Below are positions 57,911 to 61,918 of a stretch of DNA of 64,000 nt, in pieces. The translations under genes and the position numbers were made by a program. The notes below the pieces were generated by a model, which did no database searches, was not told the origin of the DNA, and saw only the letters and a program-made list of their open reading frames with translations. How positions within the stretch are numbered: the first letter of the stretch is position 1; each line of letters opens with the position of its first letter. The stretch is from assembly GCF_053078305.1 (NCBI RefSeq), contig NZ_CP166879.1. One strand, given 5' to 3'.

Positions 57911-59131
57911 ATGCCAAAGAAAATAATGACAGGGATTGATGTTTTTGACGCTGCCATGGAGCGTATTGAATGGGTGTTTGATACGTTTTCATCAGTTTGT
58001 CTTTCTTTTTCCGGCGGAAAAGACTCCACTGTCCTGTTTCACCTGATGGCGAATATTGCCCGCCGAAAAAAACGCCGTTTTTCTGTACTGTTTGTTGACT
58101 GGGAGGCTCAGTATCAGTGTACCATTGAGCATGTCACCAGGTTGAGGGAAATGTACGATGATATCACAGATACTTTTTTCTGGGTGGCGCTGCCTCTGAC
58201 GACCGTTAATGGAGTGTCTCAGGTACAGCCTGAGTGGGTATGTTGGGAGGACGGGGCTGAATGGGTTCGCCAGCCACCAGAAGATGCCATAACCAGAGCG
58301 TCTTTTTTTCCTTTTTATCAGAATGCGATGACATTTGAAGAGTTTATTCCGGCATTTAATCATTGGTTTGCCCGGGAAAAAGGGATGGTTGCTGCGATTC
58401 TTACTGGTGTTCGCGCTGATGAGTCACTGAATCGTTTTATGGGACTGGTATCCGGACGTAAGCTCCGTTATGCGGAGGATAAACCCTGGACCACGGCATC
58501 GGCTGAGGGATTTTACTACACCATGTATCCTTTGTACGACTGGAAAACAAGAGATGTATGGATTTACCATGCGAGAACACGTGCTGCCTATAACTCTCTT
58601 TATGACCTGATGTACAGGGCTGGAGTTCCTCTTCGCAATATGCGGGTGTGTGAGCCTTTTGGACCGGAGCAACGTAAGGGGTTGTGGCTTTATCATGTAC
58701 TGGAGCCGGATACATGGGGCAGAATGTGTGCTCGCGTATCAGGTGCTGTAGGGGGAGCGCTCTATGCAAATGAAAGTGGTGCTTATTTTGCTTTGAGGAA
58801 ACAGATAACAAAACCAGTTCACCATACATGGCAGAGTTATGCAATGTTTCTGCTGGAGTCAATGCCTGAGAAAACGGCGGAGCATTACAAGAATAAGATT
58901 GCTGTTTATCTTCGGTGGTGGCAGTCTCATGGATGGCCGGATGGCATCCCTGATGAGCAGGATAATGACCAGGGATGTAAAGATATTCCCTCCTGGCGTC
59001 GCATCTGTAAGACGTTACTGAAAAATGATTTCTGGTGTCGGATGCTGGCGTTTAGTCCGAATAAGCCCCGACATTATGAGCGCTACCTGGCCAGAATGCG
59101 TGAAAAAAGGAAAGAGTGGGGAATATTGTAA
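57911..59131 (+). CDS. ibrA: IbrA-like PAPS-reductase-family (PP-loop ATP pyrophosphatase) protein, intact
   Basis: ~406 aa from Met at 57911 (AAGGA RBS); PP-loop SFSGGKDS; paralog of the frameshifted gene at 32989-34214. Confidence 0.75.
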   Translation: MPKKIMTGIDVFDAAMERIEWVFDTFSSVCLSFSGGKDSTVLFHLMANIARRKKRRFSVLFVDWEAQYQCTIEHVTRLREMYDDITDTFFWVALPLTTVNGVSQVQPEWVCWEDGAEWVRQPPEDAITRASFFPFYQNAMTFEEFIPAFNHWFAREKGMVAAILTGVRADESLNRFMGLVSGRKLRYAEDKPWTTASAEGFYYTMYPLYDWKTRDVWIYHARTRAAYNSLYDLMYRAGVPLRNMRVCEPFGPEQRKGLWLYHVLEPDTWGRMCARVSGAVGGALYANESGAYFALRKQITKPVHHTWQSYAMFLLESMPEKTAEHYKNKIAVYLRWWQSHGWPDGIPDEQDNDQGCKDIPSWRRICKTLLKNDFWCRMLAFSPNKPRHYERYLARMREKRKEWGIL

Positions 59132-59319
59132 ATTATATTTAAACATCAGAAATATGACGGTTAATCCAGGATAGTAGCTAAAAAAATAAGATTCCTTGCT
59201 GATTTATCCCTGTTTGATATGTAAAATCTGAGGGGCTTATAAGCAACGGATATACGAGTGCTACAATATATGATAAGTTATATATATTAAATGTTCATCA
59301 TCTGTCAGGGGGCTGTTTT

Positions 59320-61107
59320 ATGGCTAAACTGATAAATATATCAGGTGTTACCGAGGAGCGGATGACTGCCGGGGAAAAGCGGGTTGCATCCCGTCTTGAG
59401 GCATTTATGAGTAATGAGTGTCTGGTCTGGTACGATATTCCGGTGGGACGGAAAAACCGACATCCTGATTTTGTCATTATTGACCCGGAGAATGGTCTGG
59501 TATTTCTTGAAGTCAAGGACTGGACCGTTCACACGTTGCATCAGGTAAATCACGAACAGGTCATTCTTGAAACTAACGGTATTCTTAAATCAGAAATAAA
59601 TCCGCTGCTACAGGTTCGTCGTTATGCCTGTGATACCGTAAATGCTTTACCTGCAGACTCACGTTTGCGACAGAATGATGGTCAGTATAAGGGGCGTCTG
59701 AATCTGGCCTGGGCGTATGGTGTTGTGTTTACCCGTATTACCCGCCAGCAACTGAAGGCTCTGGCTGGGAATGATGAAAATGCTGTGGAAAGGATTTTCC
59801 CTTCAGCGCAGACAATCTGTCAGGATGATATGACTCAGTCTGTTTTACCTGATATATTCCGCCAAAAAATTGCCGGGATGTTTACGATGGGATTCAGAAC
59901 CCGGGTGACACCACAGGTTAGAGATATTCTGCGTGCTCATCTGTTTCCTGAAATGACCGTCAGACAGCACTCACAAATCAAAATAATGGATATTCAGCAG
60001 GAGATTCTGGCCAGAAATATTGGTGATGGGCATCGTGTTATTCATGGGGTAGCCGGCTCTGGAAAAACCATGATTCTTTTGTTCCGTTGTCTTTACCTGG
60101 CTGAAACTACCCCTGGTAAGATTCTGGTGCTATGTTACAACATTACTCTGGCCAGCTACCTGCGGGAATGTATTGAGTCCAGGGGACTGAAGTCACGGGT
60201 TACGGTATTCCATTTTCATAGTTGGTGCGCCTCAATGATAAAGCGCCATGGAATTCAGGTGACTGCTGGAGGAAAGGATTACCCGGAGAAATGCTTCAGT
60301 GCGCTGGAAGATGCCGTGAACAGCGGAACAATTACTGATACTGGATACGATGCCGTACTTGTGGATGAGGGGCATGATTTTGAGAGTCGCTGGCTGGCTC
60401 TGATAGCCCGCCTGTTTGATAACGCGTCCCGTTCACTGCTCCTGATGTACGATGACGCACAGTCCATTTACAGACGGGAACGGGCTCTGAACTTTTCGCT
60501 TGCCAGTGTGGGGATTCAGGCGCAGGGACGTACTTCCGTCCTGCCGGTAAATTACCGTAATACGAAACGCATTCTGCACTTTGCTTATGCATTCTCCCGT
60601 GAGTATTTTGAGAAGCATCAGAACCGTGAAATACCGTTTGTTCAGCCACAGGCGGGCGGTGAAGAGGGCACAGAGCCGGAAATTCTGCGTTGTGCTTCTG
60701 AGAGTGATGAGGCAGTGCAGGTTGTGGGCTGGCTGGAGAAACGCTATACACTGTGCGGTCACTGGAGTGATATGGCTGTTTTGTGTCCTGCAGAGTTTTC
60801 AGTGAAACATCTGAAAGAGGTCATGACACAACGCGGGATACCTTATGCCACCTGCTTTGACAGTGAAGGTAAGAAGAAATATTCGCGACGCAAGGATGTT
60901 GTGCATTTACTGACCTACCAGAGCAGTAAGGGACTGGAGTTTCCGTATGTTGCGGTTATCAATGCTTCTTTCGTTCACTCAGGTGCTGCGGATGAGTCTG
61001 AAGTTATTCCGGCGCTTTATGTTGCGTTCACCCGGGCTACACGGGAATTACTGGTGACCTGTTATCGTGAAAACAGTATCAGTCGTCATCTTGAGGATTT
61101 TGTATAA
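59320..61107 (+). CDS. NERD-like nuclease domain fused to UvrD/Rep-like SF1 helicase
   Basis: 595 aa; N-terminal PD-(D/E)xK-like NERD signature (…YDIPVGRKNRHPDFVIIDPENGLVFLEVKDW…); Walker A GVAGSGKT, Walker B VLVDEGHDF, C-terminal helicase motif TYQSSKGLEFPYVAV. Confidence 0.8.
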   Translation: MAKLINISGVTEERMTAGEKRVASRLEAFMSNECLVWYDIPVGRKNRHPDFVIIDPENGLVFLEVKDWTVHTLHQVNHEQVILETNGILKSEINPLLQVRRYACDTVNALPADSRLRQNDGQYKGRLNLAWAYGVVFTRITRQQLKALAGNDENAVERIFPSAQTICQDDMTQSVLPDIFRQKIAGMFTMGFRTRVTPQVRDILRAHLFPEMTVRQHSQIKIMDIQQEILARNIGDGHRVIHGVAGSGKTMILLFRCLYLAETTPGKILVLCYNITLASYLRECIESRGLKSRVTVFHFHSWCASMIKRHGIQVTAGGKDYPEKCFSALEDAVNSGTITDTGYDAVLVDEGHDFESRWLALIARLFDNASRSLLLMYDDAQSIYRRERALNFSLASVGIQAQGRTSVLPVNYRNTKRILHFAYAFSREYFEKHQNREIPFVQPQAGGEEGTEPEILRCASESDEAVQVVGWLEKRYTLCGHWSDMAVLCPAEFSVKHLKEVMTQRGIPYATCFDSEGKKKYSRRKDVVHLLTYQSSKGLEFPYVAVINASFVHSGAADESEVIPALYVAFTRATRELLVTCYRENSISRHLEDFV

Positions 61108-61288
61108 GTTGTGTTTTATTATTGCTGATATGTAATCATTCGTTTTTTGATAATCTAAGATGGGTATTTAGCGAGTATTCAGAGTTGAATTAATATCCCC
61201 CATGTTTTTGATCTGTCAATAGCTGTCCATTACATGGGGTGATCATATATCAGTCGGTAATTACTGGATAAAGTCACCCCCTAAATGA

Positions 61289-61918
61289 TCACTTTATTGT
61301 CCATGCCGGACTAAAGTTTTCCTCCTCAAATAGTTCTGTTAACCCACTTATTTGTTTTAATCTCAGTACCTCATCTGTATCCATGCCCAGTTCACTACCT
61401 ATTCGGAGATCATCCCATCCCATCCGGGAAAGATCTCGGACGATATCGGAGAGCGCGTCTATCTGGTGCTTTCCTCTGGCCCTGTTATGCCTGATGGTCG
61501 AGGCGATAGAGTAAGCTTTAAAGTTATTATCATGCTTAATGCATGTGACAGGTAAATATCCTTTTAGTTTTTTCTCTAGTTTTGTTGTGCTTTTCCCAAG
61601 CATTTGTCTGTGAAATCCGTCAATAACGGTGTATTTCCCCTTTTGAGCTAAGGTGACAACAGGTTGAGTGAATCCATCAACCAACAGGGAGTGTGTTAAT
61701 AACCTTTTTTCGGAGGGAGCCATGACGTTAGGATTATAGTCGTTTGCTTCAATTAGATTGTTTTTTATCCATATAACACAATCAACAGGTTCTGCGTAAA
61801 AAGGACTACTCCTATGTAACTCAATCTTTATTTTATTAATTGCATCAATGCGTTCATCTTCTTTCTTAAGAGAATTAAGGTATACATTTATTTCATTTAT
61901 GATTTGTTCAATGCTCAT
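61289..61918 (-). CDS. ibrB: IbrB-like ParB-like protein (divergent paralog, opposite strand)
   Basis: 209 aa colinear with 34199-34837 (…DGFHRQMLG…IRHNRARGKHQI…LRLKQISGLTELF…) but many substitutions and visibly more AT-rich. Confidence 0.7.
   Translation of the reverse strand: MSIEQIINEINVYLNSLKKEDERIDAINKIKIELHRSSPFYAEPVDCVIWIKNNLIEANDYNPNVMAPSEKRLLTHSLLVDGFTQPVVTLAQKGKYTVIDGFHRQMLGKSTTKLEKKLKGYLPVTCIKHDNNFKAYSIASTIRHNRARGKHQIDALSDIVRDLSRMGWDDLRIGSELGMDTDEVLRLKQISGLTELFEEENFSPAWTIK

What the first reader, a model, noticed from the sequence alone, without database searches (positions are those of the whole stretch)
57911..61918. NERD-nuclease/SF1-helicase gene wedged between an IbrA-like gene and an inverted IbrB-like gene
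ORF 59320-61107 (595 aa) combines an N-terminal PD-(D/E)xK-type NERD-like region (YDIP…HPDFVIIDPENGLVFLEVKDW) with a UvrD/Rep-like SF1 helicase core (GVAGSGKT, VLVDEGHDF, TYQSSKGLEFPYV). A single-polypeptide nuclease+helicase is the architecture of Nhi-like antiphage proteins. It sits between a PP-loop PAPS-reductase-family gene (SFSGGKDS) and a ParB-like gene that is inverted and more AT-rich than its paralog at 34199-34837. That suggests the helicase was inserted into, or recruited by, an IbrAB-type module. Whether the three genes cooperate is unknown; this is the strongest candidate in the window for an uncharacterised defence locus.
Basis: partly seen in the sequence, partly recalled or inferred. 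Interest (0 to 1): 0.65.

Follow-up and report, generated by a model that had tools for sequence, protein, structure and literature searches.

The report
Solo nuclease-helicase beside ibrAB remnants
The gene is a real, intact nuclease-plus-helicase protein of a widespread family that is probably a stand-alone anti-phage or anti-plasmid gene, but the IbrA-like and IbrB-like genes beside it are leftovers of two different ibrAB operons and not its partners.

Summary
ORF 59320-61107 encodes a 595-aa protein with a NERD PD-(D/E)xK nuclease domain and a UvrD-type SF1 helicase core. It lies between an IbrA-like gene (57911-59131) and an IbrB-like gene on the opposite strand (61289-61918).

The three-gene reading does not hold. 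IbrA2 is closest to canonical E. coli IbrA (80%). IbrB2 is closest to a different ibrAB lineage (75%) that sits codirectionally after the same TonB-receptor/DUF4198 genes in other strains. So ibrB2 is in its native orientation and has lost its own ibrA, and ibrA2 has lost its overlapping ibrB. None of 80 diverse helicase-homologue loci carries IbrA or IbrB. None of 70 viral IbrA loci carries the helicase, and 66 of them carry IbrB on the same strand. The arrangement occurs in only about 35 of 5426 complete E. coli genomes.

The helicase is a solo accessory gene. Its nuclease and helicase motifs are conserved. It occurs on plasmids but not in phage genomes, and it often neighbours Thoeris, type I/IV restriction or IetS genes. 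In two E. coli genomes inspected it sits next to a PD-Lambda-1-like gene inside a T6SS cluster. It matches PADLOC's untested candidate family C3a187 and resembles Nhi in architecture only. Defence is inferred, not shown.

The parts
59320..61107 (+). Solo NERD (PD-(D/E)xK) nuclease / UvrD-type SF1A helicase gene, 595 aa. The nuclease domain spans about residues 17-110, with D50, E64 and K66. The helicase core spans about residues 220-595, with Walker A GSGKT 246-250 and Walker B DE 349-350.
   Evidence: Pfam. PADLOC C3a187, E 4e-135. The 40-sequence family alignment has D50 invariant, E64/K66 at 90% or more, and SF1 motif residues invariant or nearly so. The AF2 model has pLDDT 88.5 and its best Foldseek PDB hits are PcrA/UvrD/Rep. 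Homology to the other E. coli allele runs exactly 59317-61107.
59132..59319 (+). AT-rich (31% GC) spacer upstream of the helicase, specific to this island variant. It starts at the breakpoint where a canonical-type ibrB was lost.
   Evidence: Found only in 35 of 5426 complete E. coli genomes. No terminator-like site lies between ibrA2 and the helicase. GC content.
57911..59131 (+). ibrA2: an intact IbrA-like PP-loop gene (PAPS_reduct + DUF3440, motif SGGKDS). It is an orphan. Its 3' end keeps 13 nt of the overlapping ibrB start, then homology stops.
   Evidence: Pfam. 80% aa identity to canonical IbrA but 61% to the L005-type IbrA. Alignment with ibrA1 and the junction sequence.
61289..61918 (-). 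ibrB2: an intact IbrB-like (ParB/Srx-type, DGFHR motif) gene. It is the remnant of a second, different ibrAB operon that follows the TonB-receptor and DUF4198 genes on the - strand.
   Evidence: 75% identical to the IbrB of L005/L007/L008, where the order is TonB-receptor, DUF4198, ibrA, ibrB, all codirectional. 58% identical to IbrB1.
61919..62507 (-). 589-nt AT-rich (29.5% GC) gap at the position where ibrA sits in the L005-type islands. No ibrA remnant is detectable.
   Evidence: tblastn with six IbrA proteins gives no hit better than E 0.09. Only the last ~90 nt match other E. coli genomes.
57816..57842 (+). Terminator-like hairpin (11-bp stem plus T run) after mscS. It marks ibrA2 as the start of a new transcription unit.
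   Evidence: a consensus scan only.

Best explanation
ORF 59320-61107 is a self-contained accessory gene. It belongs to a widespread family of about 600-aa proteins that fuse a NERD PD-(D/E)xK nuclease to a UvrD/Rep/PcrA-type SF1A helicase.

Most likely function (inferred, not shown): a single-protein nucleic-acid defence or exclusion factor. The helicase would load on foreign-DNA ends, nicks or replication intermediates and translocate with ATP. That would deliver the N-terminal nuclease to cut the DNA, in the way Nhi-type nuclease-helicases and helicase-nuclease pairs such as Gabija or Hachiman are thought to act.

Its position between ibrA2 and ibrB2 is an accident of island mosaicism (shown by comparison). 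ibrA2 is an orphan of a canonical-type ibrAB operon whose ibrB was lost just after the ibrA stop codon. ibrB2 is the orphan tail of a different ibrAB operon that follows the TonB-receptor/DUF4198 genes, and its ibrA was lost. The helicase gene itself recurs as a single-ORF unit in unrelated contexts.
For: Domains and active sites:
- Pfam and PADLOC hits.
- In the 40-sequence family alignment, D50 is invariant, E64/K66 are at least 90% conserved, and the Walker A, Walker B, Q381, R413, G538 and T571-R572 positions are conserved.
- The AF2 model is confident (pLDDT 88.5) and its best structural matches are PcrA/UvrD/Rep.

Solo nature:
- 548 cluster representatives match at E<=1e-30, most with the same length and architecture.
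- In 80 loci from different species there is no conserved neighbour. The largest neighbour family occurs in 6 loci.
- None of the 80 loci has IbrA or IbrB within 8 kb.
- Nucleotide homology between this allele and the common E. coli allele begins 3 nt before the ATG and ends at the stop codon.
- The gene stands alone on E. coli plasmids. It is truncated by IS66 in O157.

Defence association:
- Of 38 immediate neighbours sampled from 31 diverse loci, 9 loci gave PADLOC hits. These include ThsA (8.5e-199), HsdR (1.2e-255 and 1.7e-36), type IV REase (5e-112) and IetS (2.8e-38).
- In E. coli 55989 and A2 the orthologue follows a PD-Lambda-1-like GIY-YIG gene (4e-88).
- The family is found in 135 plasmid records and in none of 50,697 phage genomes.

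Ibr genes are not partners:
- The identity matrices for IbrA and IbrB are incongruent.
- L005/L007/L008 show the intact order DUF4198, ibrA, ibrB.
- 66 of 70 viral IbrA loci carry IbrB on the same strand within 2.6 kb, and none carries the helicase.
- The arrangement is a single island variant present in 34-35 of 5426 complete genomes.
Against: - No experiment shows defence by this family. PADLOC lists it only as a candidate, derived from 3 genes seen near type III CRISPR loci.
- The neighbour sample was small and biased to large ORFs, and some PADLOC hits are to generic ATPase models.
- In Enterobacteriaceae the gene holds a fixed place inside a T6SS cluster. That could mean a different role.
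- No terminator or clear promoter separates ibrA2 from the helicase, so co-transcription is possible.
- All three genes are intact, with mostly synonymous changes, in the three other island copies compared. A trans-acting relationship is therefore not excluded.
Confidence: 0.6

Rival explanations
1. The three genes form one system. IbrA2 (PP-loop enzyme) with IbrB2 (ParB-like) marks or modifies self DNA, and the NERD-helicase restricts unmarked DNA. Alternatively, the helicase has replaced IbrB as IbrA's DNA-handling partner.
For: - The helicase sits exactly where ibrB normally follows ibrA, with no terminator-like site between them.
- All three genes are intact in divergent island copies.
- PAPS-reductase-family enzymes act in DNA phosphorothioation systems (PMC12839542).
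- In 55989-type genomes the helicase also lies about 3.4 kb from ibrAB.
Against: - IbrA2 and IbrB2 are non-cognate: 80% and 61% for IbrA against 58% and 75% for IbrB.
- ibrB2 belongs to another operon.
- 0 of 80 helicase loci have IbrA/B, and 0 of 70 IbrA loci have the helicase.
- The arrangement represents one evolutionary event, in 35 genomes.
- DndC and BrxP HMM hits are weak and confined to the PP-loop.
- No Dnd, Ssp or BREX partner genes lie nearby.
Confidence: 0.05
2. It is a DNA repair or recombination helicase-nuclease (AddA/RecB- or helicase IV-like) serving the host or the island, not defence.
For: - The best sequence and structure matches are the repair helicases PcrA, UvrD and Rep.
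- It holds a syntenic position in enterobacterial T6SS clusters across genera.
Against: - A match is present in only about 1050 of 5426 E. coli genomes, and many copies are truncated.
- It is carried on plasmids.
- Neighbours are highly variable and often defence genes.
- NCBIfam scores fall far below every curated repair-helicase cut-off.
Confidence: 0.15
3. It is functionally tied to type VI secretion, for example protecting against or repairing damage from DNase effectors. The window copy would be a displaced paralogue.
For: It is embedded between tssE and vasL in E. coli 55989, Cedecea neteri and a third enterobacterial genome. A tssE pseudogene lies next to the truncated copy in O157.
Against: 79 of 80 homologue loci have no T6SS genes. 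The window has none. The plasmid copies have none. In E. coli a validated-type defence gene (PD-Lambda-1-like) is embedded alongside it, which suggests a cargo slot.
Confidence: 0.05
4. It is an accessory effector of type III CRISPR-Cas, as its PADLOC/C3a187 label implies.
For: Full-length match to the C3a187 model. That family was defined from 3 genes beside type III-A/B cassettes (PMC6546367).
Against: No cas genes appear in the annotated flanks. No Cas hit was found among 38 sampled neighbours apart from one TniQ. I did not check whether E. coli carries type III systems.
Confidence: 0.03

Closest known systems
C3a187 'NERD+UvrD' (Shah et al. 2019 cluster 187; PADLOC PDLC01087)
   Same: Same sequence family and architecture. 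The HMM match is end to end, E 4.2e-135.
   Different: The family was defined as a putative type III CRISPR accessory from only 3 genes. Here, and in the sampled homologue loci, there is no CRISPR context. Its function has never been tested, as far as the held literature shows.
Nhi (S. epidermidis) and Nhi-like (Millman et al. 2022) single-gene anti-phage nuclease-helicases
   Same: One polypeptide with an N-terminal nuclease and a C-terminal SF1 helicase. The proposed mode of action is the same: helicase-driven nuclease attack on phage DNA.
   Different: Nhi and Nhi-like are defined by DUF2075/PF09848. Here PF09848 scores E 0.026 and the PADLOC Nhi model scores 6.3e-5 with no passing stretch. 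By sequence the helicase is UvrD/Rep/PcrA-type.
Gabija GajB
   Same: UvrD-like SF1A helicase. Partial GajB HMM hits reach 1e-20.
   Different: GajB works with the separate ATPase-TOPRIM nuclease GajA. No GajA is present here, and the nuclease is instead fused (NERD).
UG34/DRT-associated NERD-helicase (PADLOC RTasNERD-Hel; cluster 485 of Mestre et al. 2022)
   Same: NERD N-terminus plus helicase C-terminus. HMM hit at 6.8e-15.
   Different: The match is partial (residues 209-430), and no reverse transcriptase gene is nearby.
IbrAB (immunoglobulin-binding regulator) module of E. coli
   Same: ibrA2 and ibrB2 are clear homologues (PAPS_reduct+DUF3440; ParB-like). A YadA-like adhesin gene and LuxR-type regulator genes lie close by, as in other ibrAB islands.
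   Different: The two genes are not adjacent, not codirectional and not cognate. Each is an orphan of a different operon.

Membership tests
NERD+UvrD family (PADLOC PDLC01087 / C3a187) | Full-length match to the family HMM, with NERD at the N-terminus and a UvrD helicase at the C-terminus | tested here: met
   E 4.2e-135, residues 1-594 against profile positions 1-556 of 559. Pfam NERD, UvrD-helicase, UvrD_C and UvrD_C_2 all hit.
NERD+UvrD family (PADLOC PDLC01087 / C3a187) | Encoded next to a type III CRISPR-cas cassette (the basis on which the family was named) | tested here: not met
   No cas genes appear in the annotated flanks. No type III Cas hit was found among 38 neighbours of 31 homologue loci.
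Nhi / Nhi-like | N-terminal nuclease fused to a C-terminal SF1 helicase in one protein | tested here: met
Nhi / Nhi-like | Helicase part is DUF2075 / PF09848 (definition quoted) | tested here: not met
   PF09848 scores E 0.026, while the UvrD families are significant.
Nhi / Nhi-like | Match to the PADLOC Nhi model | tested here: not met
   E 6.3e-5, no stretch passing, about 30 residues around Walker A.
Nhi / Nhi-like | Protects against phage when expressed alone | not testable with these tools
   Requires plaque assays.
Gabija | GajB-type UvrD helicase | tested here: inconclusive
   Only partial GajB HMM hits, best 9.7e-21 over residues 341-516.
Gabija | Adjacent GajA (ATPase-TOPRIM) gene | tested here: not met
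   The neighbours are ibrA2 and ibrB2, and no such gene appears in the flanks.
IbrAB module | IbrA is PAPS_reduct + DUF3440; IbrB is a ParB-like protein homologous to IbrB | tested here: met
IbrAB module | ibrA and ibrB adjacent and codirectional | tested here: not met
   Here the genes are 2.2 kb apart and convergent, with the helicase between them. Elsewhere, 66 of 70 viral loci carry IbrB on the same strand within 2.6 kb, and in all enterobacterial loci inspected ibrA and ibrB are adjacent and codirectional.
IbrAB module | The two genes share one evolutionary history (a cognate pair) | tested here: not met
   IbrA2 is 80% identical to canonical IbrA and 61% to L005-type. IbrB2 is 58-62% identical to canonical IbrB and 75% to L005-type.
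DNA phosphorothioation-type modification/restriction (Dnd, Ssp, BREX type 4) | DndC, SspD or BrxP-type PAPS reductase | tested here: not met
   BrxP scores 1.1e-6 over the PP-loop only, DndC 6.9e-4 with no passing stretch, and NCBIfam DndC 15 bits against a cut-off of 290.
DNA phosphorothioation-type modification/restriction (Dnd, Ssp, BREX type 4) | Partner genes (DndA/D/E, SspB/C, PglZ/BrxL/BrxC) in the locus | tested here: not met
   None among the annotated neighbours. No PADLOC hits for the flanking proteins.

The most novel reading that the evidence does not exclude
In this island lineage the NERD-UvrD nuclease-helicase has taken the place of IbrB behind ibrA2 and is co-transcribed with it. 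The result would be a new coupling between a PP-loop (PAPS-reductase-family, DUF3440) enzyme that marks DNA and a nuclease-helicase that reads or restricts it, with the convergent, non-cognate IbrB2 supplying the ParB-like function in trans.
Probability: 0.04. Interest if true: 0.8.

Novelty: new member of a known kind. Interest (0 to 1): 0.3.

Why it matters
If the solo NERD-UvrD protein does protect against phages or plasmids, it would add a widespread single-gene system. The family has 548 clusters at 50% identity. A copy matches in roughly one E. coli genome in five, though many of those copies are truncated. It would belong to the nuclease-helicase class of defences, and it is easy to test.

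It would also show that T6SS clusters and virulence islands serve as slots for defence cargo.

The negative result has practical value. Physical adjacency to IbrA-like and IbrB-like genes here is a product of operon decay, so 'guilt by adjacency' would have produced a false three-gene system.

IbrA and IbrB are strictly linked in the viral contigs sampled and remain mechanistically uncharacterised. They are the more open question, but this locus does not illuminate it.

Tried and rejected
- Looked for ibrA remnants in the 589-nt gap 61919-62507 by tblastn with six IbrA proteins. Nothing better than E 0.09.
- Looked for repeats, target-site duplications or IS ends flanking the helicase. Only short chance-level matches.
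- Rfam scan of 55-64 kb at E<=0.1. No hit.
- Small ORFs in the spacers. Nothing credible.
- The protein search with the helicase returned only near-identical E. coli sequences and gave no diversity. It was replaced by the representative-library search.
- Searched for a conserved partner gene in 80 homologue loci by all-against-all clustering of neighbours. None found.
- MscS adjacency (3 of 80 loci) was judged to be chance.
- Searched the held literature for experimental work on NERD-UvrD proteins or on the IbrA/DUF3440 mechanism. None found. Sandt et al. 2002 is not held.
- The origin of the 188-nt spacer upstream of the helicase could not be traced. It matches only the same 35 genomes.

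
Full report
**What is there**

The window is a mosaic E. coli genomic island. It matches STEC and animal isolates at 99.9% identity. From 53.7 to 64 kb the genes run in this order:
- on the + strand: a YadA-like trimeric autotransporter, two LuxR/GerE-type regulators, a YqaE/Pmp3-family membrane protein, and an MscS paralogue followed by a strong terminator-like hairpin at 57816-57842;
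- then ibrA2 (57911-59131, +), a 188-nt AT-rich spacer, and the NERD-helicase (59320-61107, +);
- then a 181-nt spacer and ibrB2 (61289-61918, -);
- then a 589-nt AT-rich gap, DUF4198 (-) and a TonB-dependent receptor (-).

A canonical ibrA1/ibrB1 pair lies at 32989-34837.

**Observation check**

- The 595-aa protein has Pfam NERD (1.8e-9), UvrD-helicase, UvrD_C and UvrD_C_2. It matches PADLOC's 'C3a187, NERD+UvrD' model end to end (4.2e-135).
- ibrA2 has PAPS_reduct plus DUF3440.
- ibrB2 is 58% identical to IbrB1 and has lower GC, 38.4% against 45.1%.

**The helicase is an intact, conserved enzyme of a large family**

- A search of 1.84 billion cluster representatives found 548 proteins at E<=1e-30. 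Most are about 600 aa and match along the full length.
- In a 40-sequence alignment at 29-59% identity, D50 is invariant and E64/K66 (the PD...ExK triad of NERD) are at least 90% conserved. The following are invariant or nearly so: Walker A (G243-T250), Walker B (D349 E350), Q381, R413, G538 and T571-R572.
- M1-A2 is also nearly invariant. Nucleotide homology to the other E. coli allele starts at 59317. The start codon is therefore 59320, not RefSeq's Met15.
- An AlphaFold2 model is confident (pLDDT 88.5, pTM 0.83).
- Its best solved-structure matches are PcrA, UvrD and Rep. SLFN11/14, Upf1, Dna2 and AddA follow. All of these are SF1 helicases, and SLFN11/14, Dna2 and AddA, as I recall, also carry a nuclease domain.

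**The flanking ibr genes are not its partners**

1. Phylogenetic incongruence. IbrA2 is 80% identical to canonical E. coli IbrA and 61% to the IbrA of loci L005/L007/L008. IbrB2 is 58-62% identical to canonical IbrB and 75% to the IbrB of those same loci.
2. In L005/L007/L008 the order is TonB-receptor, DUF4198, ibrA, ibrB, all codirectional. The receptor is 94% identical in nucleotide sequence to the window's. ibrB2 is therefore in its native orientation behind the same genes. Its own ibrA has been replaced by 589 nt of AT-rich DNA with no detectable ibrA remnant.
3. ibrA2 ends '...EWGIL*' like canonical ibrA. It retains 13 nt of the overlapping ibrB start (GTGGGGAATATTG), after which all homology stops. 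A canonical-type ibrB was lost at that point.
4. Across 80 loci from different species that encode helicase homologues (37-63% identity), none has IbrA or IbrB within 8 kb. No neighbour family recurs in more than 6 loci.
5. Across 70 viral contigs that encode IbrA homologues (39-80% identity), 66 carry IbrB on the same strand within 2.6 kb. The other four are cut contigs. None carries the helicase.
6. The ibrA2 allele, the spacer and the whole arrangement occur only together, in 34-35 of 5426 complete E. coli genomes. That indicates a single evolutionary event.

**The helicase travels alone**

About 1050 complete E. coli genomes match the helicase at roughly 87% nucleotide identity. The homology is confined to the ORF itself. 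I inspected four other contexts:
- In strains 55989 and A2 the gene lies inside a T6SS cluster between tssE and vasL remnants. It sits directly after a GIY-YIG gene that matches PD-Lambda-1 (4.3e-88).
- The same T6SS position holds in Cedecea neteri and in another enterobacterial genome.
- On an E. coli plasmid it stands among unrelated genes.
- In O157:H7 it is truncated by IS66.

It is found in 135 plasmid records and in none of 50,697 phage genomes. IbrA and IbrB, by contrast, are common in viral sequences.

**Is it defence?**

This is inferred, not shown. Of 38 immediate neighbours sampled from 31 diverse homologue loci, 9 loci gave PADLOC matches:
- strong hits to ThsA (8.5e-199), type I HsdR (1.2e-255 and 1.7e-36), type IV restriction (5e-112) and IetS (2.8e-38);
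- weaker hits to STAND/Avs-like, LmuB-like and SIR2 proteins.

That is well above what I would expect if only a few percent of genes are defence genes (an assumption, not measured here). However, the sample is small and biased to large ORFs.

The PADLOC label C3a187 traces to Shah et al. 2019. It was cluster 187, made of 3 genes seen near type III-A/B CRISPR cassettes and described only as 'NERD+UvrD' (PMC6546367). There is no CRISPR context here. I found no experimental test of this family in the held literature.

**Mechanism proposed (inference from domain chemistry and analogues)**

- The UvrD-type motor, which is 3'-5' in characterised SF1A members, would engage DNA ends, nicks or replication intermediates of an invading element.
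- It would use ATP to feed DNA to the fused PD-(D/E)xK nuclease.
- No partner is required, since none is conserved.
- How self DNA is discriminated from foreign DNA is unknown.

**Comparison with known systems**

- Architecture is as in Nhi/Nhi-like, which are defined as an N-terminal nuclease plus DUF2075/PF09848. The helicase here is UvrD-type: PF09848 scores E 0.026 and the PADLOC Nhi model scores 6.3e-5. It works like Nhi but is not a member.
- GajB and the DRT-associated NERD-helicase give only partial HMM hits. Their obligatory partners (GajA, a reverse transcriptase) are absent.
- The PAPS-reductase relationship of IbrA to DndC, SspD and BrxP is confined to the PP-loop. No Dnd, Ssp or BREX partner genes are present.

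**What the ibr genes may be doing**

ibrB is reported to enhance expression of Eib immunoglobulin-binding (YadA-like) adhesins (Sandt et al. 2002, as cited in PMC7649339). YadA-like adhesin and LuxR/GerE genes sit next to ibr genes here and in L005, L008 and L009.

In this window ibrA1 is frameshifted by a 4-nt deletion. IbrA2 is therefore the only intact IbrA, alongside two intact IbrB genes, and they may act in trans. All three genes of the locus are intact, with mostly synonymous differences, in the three other island copies compared.

**Verdict**

The helicase is a plausible but untested solo defence candidate from an already catalogued family. The proposed IbrA-helicase-IbrB module is not supported.

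Interest is modest (0.3). The residual novel reading, a functional IbrA2-helicase coupling, has a probability of about 0.04.

Noticed in passing
window 32989-34214 (near 33405-33417): The canonical ibrA1 carries a 4-nt deletion relative to both the E. coli 55989 ibrA and ibrA2. This splits it into two ORFs, 142 aa and 266 aa. ibrB1 (34199-34837) is intact, so ibrA2 is the only intact IbrA gene in the window.
   Followed up: partly
window 59320-59362: RefSeq annotates the helicase from Met15 (59362). Homology with the other E. coli allele starts at 59317, and M1-A2 is nearly invariant across the family. The real start is probably 59320, preceded by AGGGGG.
   Followed up: yes
L002 5422-11583; L012 7297-11091; L092 5971-10357: In Enterobacteriaceae the helicase orthologue is embedded in a T6SS gene cluster between tssE and a vasL-like gene. 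In E. coli 55989 and A2 a PD-Lambda-1-like GIY-YIG nuclease gene sits directly upstream. Cedecea keeps only a 48-aa remnant of that gene.
   Followed up: partly
L097 6003-8169 (E. coli O157 OI-122-like region next to tRNA-Phe): The NERD-helicase gene is cut after about 265 codons by an IS66 element in an O157:H7-type genome (L097), beside a tssE pseudogene and an Ail/Lom gene. The same truncated match recurs in the other O157:H7 records listed. The gene is therefore dispensable there.
   Followed up: partly
window 53756-56533; L005 13035-16630; L008 9238-11105; L009 9915-10814: ibrAB-type genes recur next to YadA-like trimeric autotransporter genes and LuxR/GerE regulator genes in E. coli and Salmonella islands. 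This fits the reported role of IbrAB in activating Eib (YadA-like) adhesin expression.
   Followed up: no
window 61919-62507: A 589-nt, 29.5% GC non-coding stretch occupies the place of ibrA. Only its last ~90 nt (next to the DUF4198 stop codon) match other E. coli genomes. It carries several sigma-70-like sites on the - strand that could drive ibrB2.
   Followed up: partly
L098-L167 (IMG/VR contigs): IbrA and IbrB homologues are strictly co-encoded in viral contigs (66 of 70) but in two gene orders. In about 24 loci ibrB lies upstream of ibrA. Their function in phages is unknown.
   Followed up: no
window 56958-57785: An MscS mechanosensitive-channel paralogue (NCBIfam 463 bits, above its cut-off) is carried inside the island just upstream of ibrA2, followed by an 11-bp-stem terminator-like hairpin at 57816-57842.
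   Followed up: no
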